From contig OX597830.1 of the NCBI GenBank assembly GCA_951406725.2, positions 66,402,001 through 66,466,000 of the forward strand: a stretch of 64,000 nucleotides of DNA. The letters are read 5' to 3'. The notes beneath the pieces were generated by a model. That model did not search any database, was not told the origin of the DNA, and was given only the letters and a program-made list of their open reading frames with translations. This DNA comes from Octopus vulgaris (lineage: Eukaryota). The stretch's first letter is position 1. Each line of letters opens with the position of its first letter. This document shows, in pieces, positions 8,982-64,000 of this stretch. The translations under genes were made by a program, and so were the position numbers.

Positions 8982-9014
<33 letters not shown>

Positions 9015-9271: not shown

Positions 9272-10155
9272 GTTGAGTCATTCCATAAATAATGCAGTTT
9301 TTTTTTACTTCTTTTACTTTTCAAAATTAAGATAAACACAGTTCTTCTTTAATCTAAAATATACTCTCCTTCATTTTCTACAATGCTCTCCTATCTATCT
9401 GGTAGACTTTCAAGGTCTCTATTCCAAAATTCATTTTTGTCTGTGACAAAAAATACTCCTTCAGAATTGTTCTGACCTCATCTACAGAATTTATGATTTT
9501 TCTGTCCAAATGATTTTGAAGACTGTGGAATAAATGATAATCAGATGGGGTAATGTCTGGTGAATACGGTTAGTGGGGCATTATTTTCCATTCAAACTGC
9601 TCCAGCCTTTGGAATGTCATCTTCGCTGTATGTGGCTGAACATTAACCTGATGGAAGAAAACCTTTTGTCTTGCAACTAAATATGGTCGTTTTTCTTCTA
9701 GCGCTCACTGAACCTGCTCAAGCCGTTTGCATTAGATCTTTGTTATCGTTTGGTTTTGGTTTAAAAGCTAAAAGTGGACTAAACCTTTCATATCTCACCA
9801 AACAGATAACAATACTTTACATGGGTGAAGGCCTTCTTTAGCCTGGGGGGTTAGTGTTTCTCCTTTCCCCACCCACTGTCTTTGGTGCTTGACATTTTTA
9901 TAAAGAACCCACTTCTTGCCACCAGTCACTATTCGGTCCAAAAAAAGTTCATTCATGAGACATGACAGCAGAGAAGAGCACATATTTATTCTCTGCATGT
10001 GATTAGACTCGGAAAGTTTGTGAGGAACACATTGACCCAATTTGCTGACTTTTCCGATGGCACGCAGGTGTCGAATGGTTGAATAACCGAATCTAAGCCT
10101 CTCTGCTAGTTCCTCAACAGTTACAATAGAATTTTGTTCCATCAGGGTTTACAGG
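9272..10155 (-). mobile_element. 5'-truncated mariner (DD34D) transposon with pseudogenised transposase
   Basis: Minus strand motifs CVPHKL (WVPHEL), IVTGGKKWVLY, PYSPDITPSDYHLF and C-terminal VENEGEYILD*, with stops and frameshifts. TIR-like end near 9272. Confidence 0.9.
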
Positions 10156-18139: not shown

Positions 18140-18892
18140 TTTTTTTTTCCTTCTTTCTTCAAATTTTCTTCCATTTCTCGCCGAGTGTTTTCCATACACC
18201 TAGGGCAGAGAAGCTCATTGTATGCATTCCCACATTACACACACAAATTCACAGGTAAAATATGTATTTAAAAAAATTAGTATGTAAATAAATTCATGAA
18301 TGGATCTTGTTTTCACAGTGAAAATGCTCTTCTCAGTACATGAGTTGTTCCAGTTATCAGCCTGGTATCATTTTCAAATAGGTTTCAGTACCTTTTTTTT
18401 TTTTATCATTCCTAGAGATTCTACAATCACAGCTACTGAAGTTGCCTTGAGATGTCACATTTTTTCAATTTCTAGTATCAAGTCTTTATATTTACTGATC
18501 TTGTCAAATTCTTTTGCTGCTATATTGTGATCGCACGGAATACTCATGTCAATTAATAAGCACACCTTTTTTGTCTGATCTTTTATAATAGCATCTTGTT
18601 TATTAACTTTTATAGTTTTGTTGGTATGTATGGAGAAGTCCCAGAGAATCGACACATTTTCTCCTTCAGTCACAGCTTCAGGATGGTATTTATACCATTT
18701 GTCAGCGGTTTTGATTTGATAATGCTGACATATTTTCCACTGTAAATACTGGCTGACTCTGTCATGTCTTGCTTTATATTCTACAGGTGCTAAGACTCTA
18801 CACTCTGAGATTAGGTGGTCTATAGTTTCAATCTCATTGTTACGGAATCAGCATTTTGGGTCAGCTCCATTTTTTACCACATTGGCTTTGTA

Positions 18893-34002: not shown

Positions 34003-34394
34003 CATACATACATACATACATGATGGCTGCTACCCTCGTTATCGAGTATGGCCATTGCACGAAGCTTAACTGTTATTGGTGCTGTGATCGAATGTGACTT
34101 TTTAGCCCAGCTAAAGATCTACAATGTCTTGTACAGAATTGGCAACTAAAACCTTTACCGGTAATAGCCGGCTGTAGTTGTAACTGGGCTTCATGTACCT
34201 TTGCATGTCGTTTAAGTCCTCCTGCTGAATTACACTCTCTTCCACATGCCCGGCAGATATGATTAGTATGGTGTGTTACTCATCTGTCTCGCTTTATGAC
34301 TACGAAGATGACTCTTGAGTCCAGCTTCACTGAGGCAGGGTCTTGCACAGACATTGCATGTCAGCATCAAAGGAAGACCATTCCCATCTGGTCA
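34003..34394 (-). mobile_element. 3' end of RTE-like LINE encoding three C2H2 zinc fingers, in (TGTA)n
   Basis: CNVCARPCLSEAGLKSHLRSH, one frameshift, then CRACGRECNSAGGLKRHAKVH and CQFCTRHCRSLAGLKSHIRSQH*. A short 3' UTR with ctcgataacgag hairpin precedes the (tgta)n tail. Confidence 0.75.
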
Positions 34395-42122: not shown

Positions 42123-42765
42123 TATATGCTTCTGGGTTCAATCTCTCTGAACGGCAAGTGTCTTATACTACAACCTTGGGTTGATCAATAACTCCTGCAT
42201 GTAACAGAAATTGTGCTGAAGCCTATTACACATGCATGTACGCATGCCTGCACATATGCACTCACAGACACACACACTTCCACATGCATACATTCGCTTG
42301 GTCTTGAAATTTGCTCCCTAACAACATGCCTCTGGGTTTGATCTCTCTGTATGTCCAGTTTGAATATAGAATCTTAATTTCTGAACCAGGGTGGAATTGT
42401 GGACTTGTACATTGCCATGGGGCTGGCACTCTGGTCTTTTGTAATGAAATCTCTTCCTAAATTCCCTCAAAACCTCCACAAAGCTCTTTTTGTCGACTGT
42501 CTGGCCAGAGGGAACCCAGTAGATGTAGATGATGCCCTTTCTGTTGAAAAACCCAGAGGCATGTTGTTAGGGAGCAAATTTCAAGACCAAGCGAATGTAT
42601 GTGTGTGGAAGTGTGTGTGTCTGTGAGTGCATATGTGCAGGCATGCGTACATGCATGTGTAATAAGCTTCAGCACAATTTCTGTTACATGCAGGAATTAT
42701 TGATCAACCCAAGGTTGTGGTATAAGACACTTGCCATTCAGAGAGATTGAACCCAGAAACATATA
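42123..42765. repeat. Local inverted duplication (217-bp arms 42123-42339 / 42549-42765)
   Basis: The arms are reverse complements with about 7 transition mismatches. Confidence 0.9.
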
Positions 42766-52977: not shown

Positions 52978-54727
52978 TATAAGCTGTTGTTTAGCCCAAG
53001 GTCGGTTCTGATTGAGCAGACATGTGATCAAAGGTTGACTGTCTACGACCATCTCTTATTTATGTTTTTGTTTATATCTAGGTCTACATTCTTTTATTTT
53101 TTGATTTGTTTGAGTCATTAAGCAGTGGCCTTGCTGGAGCAATGCCTTGAAAGGTTGAACAAATCAAACTCAGTACTTATTTTTTAAAGCCTAGTACTTA
53201 TTCAATCGGTTTCTTTTGCTGAACTGTTAAGTTACAGGGACGTAAAAACACCAATGACAGTTGTCAAGCATTGATGGGGGGACAAACACTGACACAAACA
53301 CATGCACACATAAATATATACATATATATATATATACAACGGGCTTCTTTCAGTTTCCTCCTACCAAATCCACTCACAAGGCTATGGTCGGCCTGAGGTT
53401 ACAGTAGGAGACACCTGCTCAAGGTGCCATGCAGTGGGACTGAACCTGGAACTATGTGGTTGGGTAGCAAGCTCCTTACCACACAATTAAAGGGTATCAC
53501 TAAAGGGTATCATTCTGTATTCTGGGAATACAGAATGATACTCTTTAGCAAACATATTGAGAAATGCGCAAAGGAACTGCTACCACAATTTGTAATCTTC
53601 CCATTCTATCAATGTGCCATTGGAACACCAACACAAGTTAGATTAAATAAGGAAACCTTCTTCATTGAAAAATATAAACCAAAACATAACCATTTCTAAC
53701 ATTTTTAAATAAATAAACTCACTTCATTGAAAAAAATATAAGCAAAACCTAACCACTTGTAACATTCTATTCCTTCTACACCAAATCATGTTAAATTGAT
53801 AAAACCTAGTCATTCCCAACATTTTTGATTATCTCCCTTATACCGGGTTTCTTTCAGTTTCCTTATTACAAAATCCACTCATAAGGATTTGGTCAGCCCA
53901 AGGCTATAGCAGAAGACACTTGCTCAAGGTGCCATGCAGTGGGACTGAACCCAGAAGCATGGTTGGGAAGCAAGCCTCTTACCACACAGCCACACCTGTA
54001 TATATATATACATATATAGGCGTTATATTGGCATTAGGAAAGGGCATCCAGCTGTAGAAACATTGCCAGATCAAGACTGGAGCCTGGTGCAGCCTTCTGA
54101 TTCCCAGCCCTCAGTCAAAATCGTCCAACCCATCCTAGCATGGAAACGGACGTTAAACAATGATGATGATGATGATATAACACAAGCCTTCTGTAGTTTT
54201 TTCATATTTTGTGTTTTTACATCAACCACGTGCTTTCATACCAACTCTCTCTCTCACACACATATATATATTTATATCTTTATAACATTTTACTTGTTTA
54301 TCATTGACTGATATGTATATTCTTTTATTCTTTTACTTGTTTCAGTCATGTGACTGGAGGCATGCTGGGACACCACCTTGAGCTGTTTTTAAATGACCCC
54401 AGTACTTTTTTAAAGCCTGTCACTTATCTATTGATCTCTTTTGTCAAACTCCAAAGTTACATGGATGTAAACAAACCAACATTGGTTGTCAAGTGATGGT
54501 GAGGGACAAACACACATACACGCATGCACATACACGCATGCACACACATACACACGCTCACATGCATATGGTGGGCTTCTTTCAGTTTCTGTCTGCAAAA
54601 TCCAGTCACAAGGCTTTGGTCAGCTTGAGGCTATAGTAAAAGACACTTGTGCAAGGTGCCATGCAGTGGGACTGAACCTGGGATCATGTTGGTTGGGAAG
54701 CAAATATTTGCCATATATATATACTGC

Positions 54728-61954: not shown

Positions 61955-62346
61955 ATGAAATATGGCCACACAAACACACACTTATGAATATCTGGAAATA
62001 AAAATTCAACATGACTGGATTTTGACTCCATATGGTGGATGTATCTTCAATTTCTAGTTATGTTGGAATCACAGATATATTTTTATACACACAACTTTTC
62101 TAACATATATTTATCTATTTATACATGCATATATATCCATATAAAGAATTGATGTATACACAACAAAGAATAAATCCACAGCAATTAAGAACTCAGTTTA
62201 TGACAGATCATTCCACTTGTTTCGTGTTCTATCTGTTTTACATTGAAACTAGCCAGATCCAGTCTTTCATGCCTACTCTACAATGTCACTTCAAAGATAA
62301 ACACTCACATCATTGAAATCTTGAAGCTATGAGATAATGTATGATT

Positions 62347-62746
62347 AGGCGAAGGAGTGGCTGTGTGGTAAGTAGCTTGCTAACCAACCACATGGTTCCG
62401 GGTTCAGTCCCACTGCGTGGCATCTTGGGCAAGTGTCTTCTGCTATAGCCCCCGGGCCGACCAATGCCTTGTGAGTGGATTTGGTAGACGGAAACTGAAA
62501 GAAGCCTGTCGTATATATGTATATGTATGTGTGTGTTTGTGTGTCTGTGTTTGTCCCCCTAGCATTGCTTGACAACCGATGCTGGTGTGTTTACGTCCCC
62601 GTTACTTAGCAGTTTGGCAAAAGAGACCGATAGAATAAGTACTGGGCTTACAAAAAGAAAAAGTACCGGGGTTGAGTTGCTCGATTAAAGGCGGTGCTCC
62701 AGCATGGCCGCAGTCAAATGACTGAAACAAGTAAAAGATAAAAGAT
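62347..62746 (+). mobile_element. SINE family A
   Basis: Matches the family consensus. Confidence 0.85.
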
Positions 62747-63539
62747 TATAGTTGTTTGGAGCCCTGAATAGGGGTCCCAAGGGCATGTAGATGCTTAGCC
62801 GCAATGGACCATCAGGGAACACTTACCCAAACCCCACCCTCCCAGTAAGTGAAAGATTTCCAGTGAGACAGAGAGAAAGAGACCTCCAGTAAGAGTGAGA
62901 GAGAGAGATTTCCGTGAGAGAGAGGGGGGTGGGTGAGAAAGAGATTTCAAGTATTGGTGGCAGGGGTGGGAAAGGGTGGGTGCAATCACCGATATGAAGG
63001 GTCATTTTAAGGGTTATAGCAAATCATTTTAGAGAAAAGTATGGGATAAGTATATACAAGTATATAGCCAAGACCAAGGTTAGTCATTTTAGGGGCAGAA
63101 CAAACAAGAAAGAATTATTTTAGAGAAAAGATGGGTTTGAATGAATGAGACAATTAAAAAAAAAAAACAAGGGAGATTCTTTGCTTAGCTGTACATATTT
63201 TCGAGTGTCATCGCCGAACACACGGACTAAACTAAACTAAACTAACGAAAGTCTGAGAGCATGAGGAACAGGTGTAGGGGCGACAGCCAGAAATGGACAA
63301 AGAGAAATAGCAGTGAGTGACCATCGCAATAAGAAATAAGAGATACAGACAGGAATGAAAGTGAACAGTATGAAATATGTATATATATATATCACCGACA
63401 TGAAAGGTCATTTTTGGGGTTATAGCAAATTATATATATATGTATATATATATATATATAAGTAGGTGAATGAATTATCACTGTGGTCACCATGTAGGCA
63501 ATCATCAAAACTTTTGTTCGTCTTGTGGCTGAAAGAGGC

Positions 63540-63636
63540 TCCTTATCTTTCCTGATGAGAAGATGGCATAATGCACCATTTATTCCTTCGGAATTAAAAG
63601 TATGCCGTCTTCGAAACATGTGTTGAGAGTAAAGGA
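63540..63636 (+). ncRNA. Type I hammerhead ribozyme (intact core)
   Basis: Stem I tccttatctttc / gagagtaaagga (5+5 bp around a 2x2 loop), CTGATGA 63552-63558, 12-bp stem II GAAGATGGCATA / TATGCCGTCTTC, GAAA 63613-63616, minimal stem III with palindromic ACATGT, GUU triplet 63622-63624. Confidence 0.85.
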
Positions 63637-64000
63637 ATGTTGTTAAAATCTTCGTTCGACTCCATTCTTTCATTTATTCATATATATATATATATATATA
63701 TATAATAACAAAATAATAAATAAAACATATGCATATATACATAAATATATGTACGTACCTCCATCTATATGTATATATACATGCATATATGGGTACAGGA
63801 CACCAAAAAAGCGTAGAACACAATGAGAAACGAAAACATAAAAACAAAACCATGGTAACGGACATTTTTTTACACACATATATACTTTTGTATTGTCACT
63901 GTTTCCCTTTTAGAGCATGCTTTTTCTGACTCATTGATGACTAACTGATAATGTGTGTGTGTGTGTGTGTGTGTGCAGTGAAGGGAAGGAAGCAATAACT

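What the first reader, a model, noticed from the sequence alone, without database searches (positions are those of the whole stretch)
63540..63636. Near-intact self-cleaving hammerhead ribozyme
Seen: both conserved boxes (CUGAUGA, GAAA) are correctly spaced around a 12-bp stem II. Stem I is 10 bp with an internal loop, stem III is minimal with palindromic ACAUGU, and the cleavage triplet is GUU. The 30-nt loop II contains its own hairpin (attcc-ttc-ggaat), an unusually large insertion. Known: Penelope-like retroelements carry type I hammerheads with very short palindromic stem III that can act as dimers. Inference: this is a PLE-derived ribozyme, and GUU may come from GUC by CpG decay. It could cleave any + strand transcript crossing it.
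Basis: partly seen in the sequence, partly recalled or inferred. Interest (0 to 1): 0.8.

Follow-up and report, generated by a model that had tools for sequence, protein, structure and literature searches.

The report
Long-armed hammerhead in Penelope-like repeat
This animal DNA holds a hammerhead-ribozyme fold with an unusually long second arm, inside a many-copy repeat that is likely the tail of a Penelope-like jumping gene; the family is predicted to cut as a pair, and this lone, slightly mutated copy is probably inactive.

Summary
The motif is real: both boxes, a 12-bp stem II and stem I are where stated, and 0 of 200 shuffled windows give its like. It lies in a ~205-nt repeat fragment between (TA)n tracts. 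1392, 135, 675 and 723 related contigs in four runs show no listed variant at 16 core positions, only pair-keeping changes in stem II (one apparently compensatory, unphased), and GUC in 83-99.6% of depth, so GUU is this copy's own change. Best reading: the 5'-truncated 3' end of a Penelope-like element (probably Neptune-type; parent ORF not directly linked) whose hammerhead works as a dimer. This solo copy is unlikely to cut host transcripts. Unusual part: stem II 12 bp and loop II 30 nt, against 3-8 bp and 3-9 nt in 56 published examples; Rfam and the published descriptor miss it. In most copies loop II also holds a 9-nt complement of stem I's 3' strand (possible switch or pseudoknot). The scan noted Penelope hammerheads in other genomes but not this sequence. 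Cleavage is untested.

The parts
63474..63680 (+). 5'-truncated repeat fragment carrying the hammerhead (likely the 3' end / pseudo-LTR of a Penelope-like element)
   Evidence: depth starts in bin 63468-63475 and falls over 63676-63690; in all four runs loose ends at 63474 show that other copies continue upstream with a different sequence
63431..63459 (.). (TA)n tract left of the insertion (inferred target site)
   Evidence: sequence; no depth at 63460-63467
63460..63473 (+). 14 nt not shared with the family; a faint likeness to the inverted 3' end is not beyond chance
   Evidence: table 2 and 7; (823 of 2000 shuffles reach the score)
63540..63551 (+). stem I, 5' strand (variable between subfamilies, pairing kept by a register shift in the commonest one)
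63552..63558 (+). catalytic box CUGAUGA
   Evidence: 0 of 7 positions with a listed variant (>=4%) (tally)
63559..63570 (+). stem II, 5' strand (12 bp; starts directly with G10.1, no extra base)
   Evidence: (pair probabilities 0.64-1.0)
63571..63600 (+). loop II, 30 nt, with inner hairpin 63582-63594; 63577-63585 is a 9-nt complement of 63627-63635 in copies with C at 63578 (87-93% of depth), 7 nt in this copy
63601..63612 (+). stem II, 3' strand
63613..63616 (+). catalytic box GAAA
   Evidence: no listed variant
63616..63623 (+). helix III strand ACAUGUGU, self-complementary; predicted to form an 8-bp helix with a second copy; 29-45% of family depth has the perfect palindrome (A at 63620)
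63624..63625 (+). predicted cleavage site (after 63624); U here, C in most copies
   Evidence: position from the established hammerhead consensus
63625..63636 (+). stem I, 3' strand
63637..63680 (+). 3' tail of the repeat, its deepest-covered part; 63663-63679 is predicted to pair with 63627-63639 and displace stem I in this copy
   Evidence: table 2
63680..63703 (.). (TA)n tract right of the insertion
   Evidence: sequence

Best explanation
This is a type I hammerhead fold in a many-copy repeat that is likely the 5'-truncated 3' end (pseudo-LTR) of a Penelope-like retroelement, predicted to cut only when two copies pair through their self-complementary helix III strands. Shown: the fold, the repeat family, conservation of the core and pair-keeping variation. 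Inferred: in a tandem master element (pLTR-ORF-pLTR) the two ribozymes form a double hammerhead, perhaps helped by the element's protein, and cut after GUC; reverse transcription starts about 57 nt downstream of the cut site and inserts into (TA)n, mostly from uncut RNA, since copies hold both sides of the site; the parent is probably of the Neptune/Nematis type. Inferred: this copy is a recent, lone insertion of a minor subfamily with about three private changes (63511, 63624, 63639) and is probably inactive in vivo.
For: Chance excluded. 1392, 135, 675 and 723 contigs laid at >=80% in four runs of three coded organisms. 0 of 16 core positions vary at >=4%. All 4 variant rows in stem II keep a pair: U-G>C-G at 63564, G-C>G-U at 63606, and G-C>U-A at 63565/63606, whose shares match in X7 (74/69%) and X2 (43/52%). 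Stem I: 63543C and 63545U occur at matching shares (59/52, 56/57, 40/35, 62/65%), which gives a 10-bp stem with one bulge. Helix III: monomer probability 0.07, 0.96-0.97 between two copies; designed double hammerhead -60.4 against -54.2 kcal/mol for two monomers. (TA)n flanks and one X1 contig joining 63477 to 63650 on opposite strands (table 5) fit the microsatellite bias and inverted truncated copies of PLEs (PMC8557442, passages). The family's upstream loose end aligns to the last codons of a PLE endonuclease remnant at 53696-53720: rank 6 of 6394 tiles, 2 of 2000 shuffles; that remnant is 80% identical to a protein with a C-x4-C-x2-C linker and GIY-YIG domain. Small palindromic helix III and dimer-dependent low activity are described for PLE hammerheads (PMC4209133, main text parts 1-2 of 4); protein-assisted cleavage, uncut template and internal RT start for an anole PLE (PMC11167929, parts 1-2 of 4). 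PLEs make up 6.83% of the O. vulgaris genome (PMC13282606 supplement row).
Against: No sequence joins this repeat to an ORF; the loose-end match is AT-rich, gapped and was first seen by eye. tblastn of 152 PLE-like proteins finds nothing near 63400-63700. Variants are not phased: no listed contig spans the stretch, and the 63565U/63606A shares disagree in X1 (45/81%) and X6 (37/83%), which I put down to clipping of one subfamily at 63599. The inverted joint rests on one contig. Stem II and loop II lie outside the published range, and the extra base between A9 and G10.1 typical of min-HHRs is absent. The cofold minimum (-63.0) is a slightly different dimer that extends helix III into the core. 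Cleavage was not tested.
Confidence: 0.78

Rival explanations
1. Loop II is a working part: in most copies its 9-nt segment (63577-63585) pairs with the 3' strand of stem I (63627-63635), either as a pseudoknot that clamps stem I beside the 12-bp stem II, or as an off-switch that competes with stem I until the element's protein binds. This is a rival on mechanism, compatible with a Penelope origin.
For: With C at 63578 (87-93% of depth) the 9-mer pairs at -10.1 kcal/mol, against -9.2 and -9.6 for the stem I 5' strands; 224 of 20000 shuffles of this loop's composition give a complement of 9 nt or more. Loose ends in X2, X6 and X7 show A at 63629, which keeps the loop pairing but breaks a stem I pair (table 7). 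2 bp of stem I plus 9 bp would about match the 12-bp stem II, with a short 5' and a long 3' linker (my geometric inference). Pseudoknots between stems I and II are common in non-repetitive hammerheads (PMC3088659, passages).
Against: Post hoc. In this copy only 7 nt pair, 662 of 5000 shuffles do as well, and the loop's duplex energy is not beyond shuffles (573 of 2000). Three low-share variants (63579C, 63581C, 63627A; each 14% or less) break it with no partner change listed. The register shift keeps a full stem I in the commonest subfamily. The complement could be a left-over duplication of the stem I 5' strand.
Confidence: 0.15
2. The copy is a solo monomer of a non-LTR retrozyme: a protein-less 200-400-nt tandem unit that makes circular RNA and borrows PLE enzymes.
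For: Many copies, type I hammerhead, low GC; solo monomers of retrozymes are described and retrozymes are proposed to derive from PLE pLTRs (10.64898/2026.07.22.740005, parts 1-2 of 5; PMC7229834, passages).
Against: No second unit in the window; no head-to-tail joint in four runs, only an opposite-strand joint (table 5; contigs of repeats are short, so this is weak); a defined 3' end into (TA)n; no canonical 6-bp/4-bp helix sizes; the upstream loose end resembles a PLE ORF end.
Confidence: 0.1
3. This particular copy has been kept by the host and cuts a + strand transcript (intron or UTR) as a monomer.
For: All core bases are intact and GUU is listed among cleavable NUH triplets (PMC3138052, passage).
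Against: It differs from multi-copy contigs by only 1-2 letters in 86-156 (table 8), as a young neutral insertion would; its private changes go away from the family state; helix III probability 0.07; stem I lost with the 3' tail present (probability 0.00-0.03, 3.2-5.7 kcal/mol); the only host-gene sign among 148 frames scanned is a zinc-finger frame on the - strand 29 kb away.
Confidence: 0.03
4. The parent is a Naiad (N-terminal endonuclease PLE), and this long-armed hammerhead is what the 'half-core' notes on Naiads missed.
For: Naiads prefer (TA)n, and eight are marked with half cores 35-50 nt apart, among them the O. vulgaris one (PMC8557442); the spacer here is 54 nt.
Against: 4 of 6 motifs of this repeat have 0 matches in the paper's 584,131-character supplement; the other two have 5 each, and those shown (2 of 5 and 4 of 5) lie in unrelated contexts. 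The 3' ends of the three octopus Naiad consensus sequences do not resemble it by eye. Cephalopod Naiads are described as long inactive, whereas this family has near-identical copies.
Confidence: 0.04
5. A chance arrangement of two short boxes around a hairpin.
For: No Rfam hit.
Against: 0 of 200 shuffles; invariant core and pair-keeping changes across the family.
Confidence: 0.01

Closest known systems
Hammerheads in pseudo-LTRs of metazoan Penelope-like elements, variant with small palindromic helix III (Cervera and de la Pena 2014, PMC4209133; closest row of Fig. S3 in style: Saccoglossus kowalevskii (2))
   Same: Type I; CUGANGA and GAAA boxes; G10.1-C11.1 pair; self-complementary helix III suited to dimers; dispersed single copies in consensus families; U17 common (24 of 56, hand count).
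   Different: Stem II 12 bp against 3-8 bp and loop II 30 nt with an inner hairpin against 3-9 nt in the 56 rows; outside the paper's descriptor (stem II 3-7, loop 3-10), which itself biases that range; no extra base between A9 and G10.1; no cephalopod among the 56; ORF link not shown here.
Poseidon element of Anolis carolinensis (PAc; Frangieh et al. 2024, PMC11167929)
   Same: Hammerhead a short way upstream of the genomic 3' end; AT-rich targets; copies hold both sides of the cut site, as expected if uncut RNA is the template.
   Different: There the ORF starts inside the ribozyme and the RT start lies about 85-92 nt past the cut; here the end is about 57 nt past it and no long ORF starts in the motif. 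Protein dependence is untested here.
Non-LTR retrozymes of animals (Cervera and de la Pena 2020, PMC7229834; Li et al. 2026 preprint)
   Same: Non-coding, many-copy, type I hammerhead with weak helix III.
   Different: No tandem unit or head-to-tail joint seen; helix sizes not canonical; circular RNA untested.
Rfam hammerhead families
   Same: Core boxes and three-helix layout by eye.
   Different: No match up to E 10, probably because of the 54-nt stem-loop II (inference).

Membership tests
Type I hammerhead ribozyme | Core CUGANGA, GAAA and NUH in order around stems I and II, ends in stem I | tested here: met
Type I hammerhead ribozyme | Core conserved and stems kept across relatives | tested here: met
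   0 of 16 core positions vary at >=4%; 4 of 4 stem II variant rows keep a pair; unphased
Type I hammerhead ribozyme | Site-specific self-cleavage after H17 | not testable with these tools
   needs an in vitro assay; contigs cannot show RNA ends
Type I hammerhead ribozyme | Match to an Rfam hammerhead model | tested here: not met
   no hammerhead family up to E 10
Metazoan PLE hammerhead (PMC4209133) | Very short helix III whose strand is self-complementary (dimer type) | tested here: met
   perfect palindrome in 29-45% of family depth
Metazoan PLE hammerhead (PMC4209133) | min-HHR descriptor: stem II 3-7 bp, loop II 3-10 nt, GAAANNUH | tested here: not met
   12 bp, 30 nt, and 6 nt between GAAA and UH
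Metazoan PLE hammerhead (PMC4209133) | G10.1-C11.1 pair; extra base between positions 9 and 10.1 | tested here: inconclusive
   pair present (63559/63612); extra base absent, as in a few rows of Fig. S3
EN+ Penelope-like element | Hammerhead near the 3' end, downstream of an RT + GIY-YIG ORF, in a pLTR | tested here: inconclusive
   near the 3' end: yes; ORF link only by a 27-column match of the upstream loose end to an endonuclease remnant; no ORF in this copy
EN+ Penelope-like element | Dispersed 5'-truncated copies, inverted partial copies, microsatellite targets | tested here: met
   truncation at 63474 and (TA)n flanks; inversion seen in one contig only
EN+ Penelope-like element | Tandem pLTR-ORF-pLTR master copy; clade by RT phylogeny | not testable with these tools
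   no genome held; loci searches empty
Non-LTR retrozyme | Tandem units of 150-450 bp, each with a hammerhead | tested here: not met
   single copy in the window; no head-to-tail joint (weak, short contigs)
Non-LTR retrozyme | Abundant circular RNA | not testable with these tools
   only contigs were served
Octopus Naiad elements (PMC8557442) | Sequence identity with the published consensus 3' ends | tested here: not met

The most novel reading that the evidence does not exclude
A hammerhead architecture not covered by current search models: a 12-bp stem II whose 30-nt loop carries a 9-nt copy of the stem I pairing strand and works as a built-in pseudoknot clamp or on/off switch, spread in very many copies through the genomes of several related species. 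It would make protein-assisted or switched cleavage in Penelope retrotransposition directly testable and imply a hidden class of long-armed hammerheads in animal genomes.
Probability: 0.15. Interest if true: 0.68.

Novelty: new variant of a known kind. Interest (0 to 1): 0.38.

Why it matters
Hammerheads in Penelope-like elements are known, and what they do is still open. This family is bigger in stem-loop II than any of the 56 published examples I could compare and escapes both Rfam and the published descriptor, so counts of animal hammerheads may miss long-armed forms. Its many copies and several subfamilies offer ready covariation data and natural variants for asking whether loop II, dimer formation or the element's protein turns cleavage on. 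I found no paper on octopus hammerheads in three searches, but could not read Lunse et al. 2017 on PLE hammerhead variants, nor any repeat library. The single copy in this window is most likely a harmless insertion.

Tried and rejected
Rfam: no hammerhead hit. No genome held, so copies could not be counted or phased; summed contig depth is no copy number and I give none. Second copy in the window: none by blastn (output cut at 9000 characters, so hits for the upstream query 62741-63380 were not seen) or pattern scan. Pattern scans: metagenomes 0 and 1, viral 0, prokaryote genomes 5; all 6 hits have stem II 4-5 bp and stem I 0-3 bp and were dropped as chance. No RNA holder listed; X2 is only guessed to be RNA and was used for sequence variants only. 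CpG decay of a whole ancestral GCGC loop III, my first idea: rejected, since no variant is listed at 63618, 63619 or 63621. Inverted tail at 63460-63477: not beyond chance. The downstream competing hairpin alone is not beyond shuffles (z -1.07, 28 of 200; 3463 of 5000) and uses G63639, which the family lacks (T in 99.9-100%), so I treat it as a property of this copy. ORF starting in the ribozyme as in PAc: only short frames. Bacterial promoter/terminator scan: not applicable, nothing beyond shuffles. Host gene: 148 of 201 candidate frames scanned with Pfam (two more); 3 of 148 had hits. A search for measured U17 versus C17 rates found 0 papers; that U17 is slower than C17 is recalled. Earlier scan notes: none on this sequence or genome.

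Full report
Observation. It is the only such motif in the window; 0 of 200 shuffled windows give one with stem I >=5 and stem II >=8 bp, and 2 of 200 with 5 and 5 bp. The stretch folds stems I and II as its minimum-energy structure (z -2.5). Rfam does not see it, at gathering score or up to E 10. One detail needs correcting: the strand that matters for a double hammerhead is ACAUGUGU (63616-63623), self-complementary with two G-U pairs, not the off-register ACAUGU.

Setting. The window is AT-rich animal DNA full of microsatellites and SINE copies. The SINE and the zinc-finger frame suggest an octopus; this is recalled likeness and was not tested. No genome is held. Twenty public runs of five coded organisms hold part of the stretch. 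I laid four of them (X1, X2, X6, X7; three organisms) at 80% likeness: 1392, 135, 675 and 723 contigs. Cover begins near 63474, where loose ends in all four runs show other copies going on upstream, so this copy is cut short at its 5' side. Cover is deepest at 63644-63675 and falls at 63676-63690, where (TA)n begins; (TA)n also lies on the left. The steep rise in depth at 63532-63548 is at least partly divergence between subfamilies, because loose ends at 63540 are related to the window's upstream sequence. One X1 contig joins 63477 to 63650 on opposite strands. No head-to-tail joint is listed. The tool warns that depth is no copy number, and I give none.

Conservation. Of 31 variant rows at 4% or more, none falls on the 16 core positions. 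In stem II all four rows keep a pair: 63564 U>C (U-G to C-G), 63606 C>U (G-C to G-U), and 63565 G>U with 63606 C>A (G-C to U-A). The last is a double change by matching shares in X7 (74 and 69%) and X2 (43 and 52%), but not in X1 (45, 81%) or X6 (37, 83%); loose ends at 63599 suggest that one subfamily is clipped there by a one-base deletion. Nothing is phased. In stem I, 63543C and 63545U come at matching shares in all four runs and give a 10-bp stem with one bulged U. At 63620, A (29-45%) makes helix III a perfect palindrome. At 63624, C holds 82.5, 99.6, 96.4 and 95.3% of depth, so the family reads GUC and this copy's GUU is private. Contigs with only 1-2 differences over 86-156 letters (table 8) place the copy in a young minor subfamily, from which it differs at about 63511, 63624 and 63639 (inference). 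Whether methylation caused the C>T change is open: 7 of 21 listed transitions are of CpG type against 41 of 205 sites, while octopus transposons carry little methylation (PMC9476566, passages).

Parent. This copy has no ORF, and 152 PLE-like proteins find nothing near it. Ten kb away, at 53532-53696, lies the remnant of a PLE endonuclease C-terminus, 80% identical to P0001, which has a C-x4-C-x2-C linker before a GIY-YIG domain; such a linker marks Neptune and Nematis (PMC8557442, passages). The 30-letter loose end upstream of 63474 aligns to the last codons of that remnant with a score reached by 6 of 6394 window tiles and 2 of 2000 shuffles. This suggests that long copies run straight into the end of such an ORF, but the match is AT-rich, gapped and first seen by eye. 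The published octopus Naiad consensus sequences do not match.

Mechanism. As a monomer helix III has probability 0.07; between two copies its eight in-register pairs have 0.96-0.97, and the designed double hammerhead is 6.2 kcal/mol below two monomers, though 2.6 above a dimer that extends helix III into the core. This matches the dimer model and low activity reported for PLE hammerheads (PMC4209133, parts 1-2 of 4; review passages PMC6765202). In the one PLE studied in vitro, cleavage needs the protein, uncut RNA is the main template and reverse transcription starts inside the RNA downstream of the ribozyme (PMC11167929, parts 1-2 of 4). Here contigs bridge the cut site and the repeat ends about 57 nt past it, which fits. 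For this copy, adding the 3' tail drops stem I from about 0.9 to 0.00-0.03, partly through a private G at 63639; that hairpin is not itself beyond shuffles. With no partner nearby, U17 (slower than C17; recalled, one search found no paper) and no + strand gene in sight, cutting of a host transcript is unlikely. The window ends 364 nt after the motif, so a partner further right is not excluded.

What is unusual. In the 56 representative metazoan hammerheads of PMC4209133 Fig. S3 (supplement read whole) stem II has 3-8 bp and loop II 3-9 nt, under a descriptor limited to 3-7 bp and 3-10 nt. This one has 12 bp and 30 nt, and these sizes are a family trait. In copies with C at 63578 (87-93%) loop II holds a 9-nt complement of 63627-63635 that pairs as strongly as stem I itself (-10.1 against -9.2 and -9.6 kcal/mol; 224 of 20000 shuffles). 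A at 63629 in one subfamily favours this pairing; three variants of 14% or less break it, and in this copy it is only 7 nt and within chance. I rate a pseudoknot or switch at about 15%.

Literature seen. PMC4209133: main text parts 1-2 of 4 and the whole supplement. PMC11167929: parts 1-2 of 4. 10.64898/2026.07.22.740005: parts 1-2 of 5 and passages; its supplements are closed. PMC8557442: passages, supplement searches and part 24 of 59. PMC7229834, PMC6765202, PMC3088659, PMC9476566, PMC3138052: passages. PMC13282606: passages and a supplement search; its repeat library was not available, and this repeat may well be in it as a Penelope family. Lunse et al. 2017: not held, so long-stem variants may be described there. 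Searches for hammerheads in octopus and for Neptune hammerheads listed no paper on this motif.

Verdict. Observation confirmed with one correction; interpretation partly supported. A real, family-conserved, probably dimer-dependent hammerhead of a likely Penelope-like element, with an outsized stem-loop II that search models miss. New variant of a known kind; interest 0.38.

Noticed in passing
window 53532-53765 (+): Remnant of a PLE GIY-YIG endonuclease C-terminus (80% identical to P0001; tblastn hits from 84 of 152 related proteins on the + strand), followed by an imperfect duplication of its last codons and flanked by SINE pieces; no hammerhead beside it.
   Followed up: partly
window 34076-34279 (-): Frame with two C2H2 zinc fingers (Pfam); the only sign of a host gene found.
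   Followed up: no
window 9795-10145 (-) and 42321-42566 (-): Mariner-type transposase fragments (Transposase_1); the second sits between 217-nt inverted arms 42123-42339 / 42549-42765.
   Followed up: no
window 18455-18847 (-): Frame that looks like the C-terminal endonuclease region of an R2/R4-type LINE (recalled likeness; no Pfam hit).
   Followed up: no
window 62985-63024 and 63391-63430 (+): Imperfect 40-nt direct repeat about 400 nt apart just left of the element, seen by eye; may bound another small insertion.
   Followed up: no
window 62345-62745 and many other places: Abundant ~400-nt SINE in both orientations, copies 85-93% alike; resembles octopus SINEs (recalled).
   Followed up: no
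window 63596-63607 (loose ends): A further subfamily with a different stem II 3' strand and loop end shows up in X1 and X7; its 5' partner strand was not visible.
   Followed up: no
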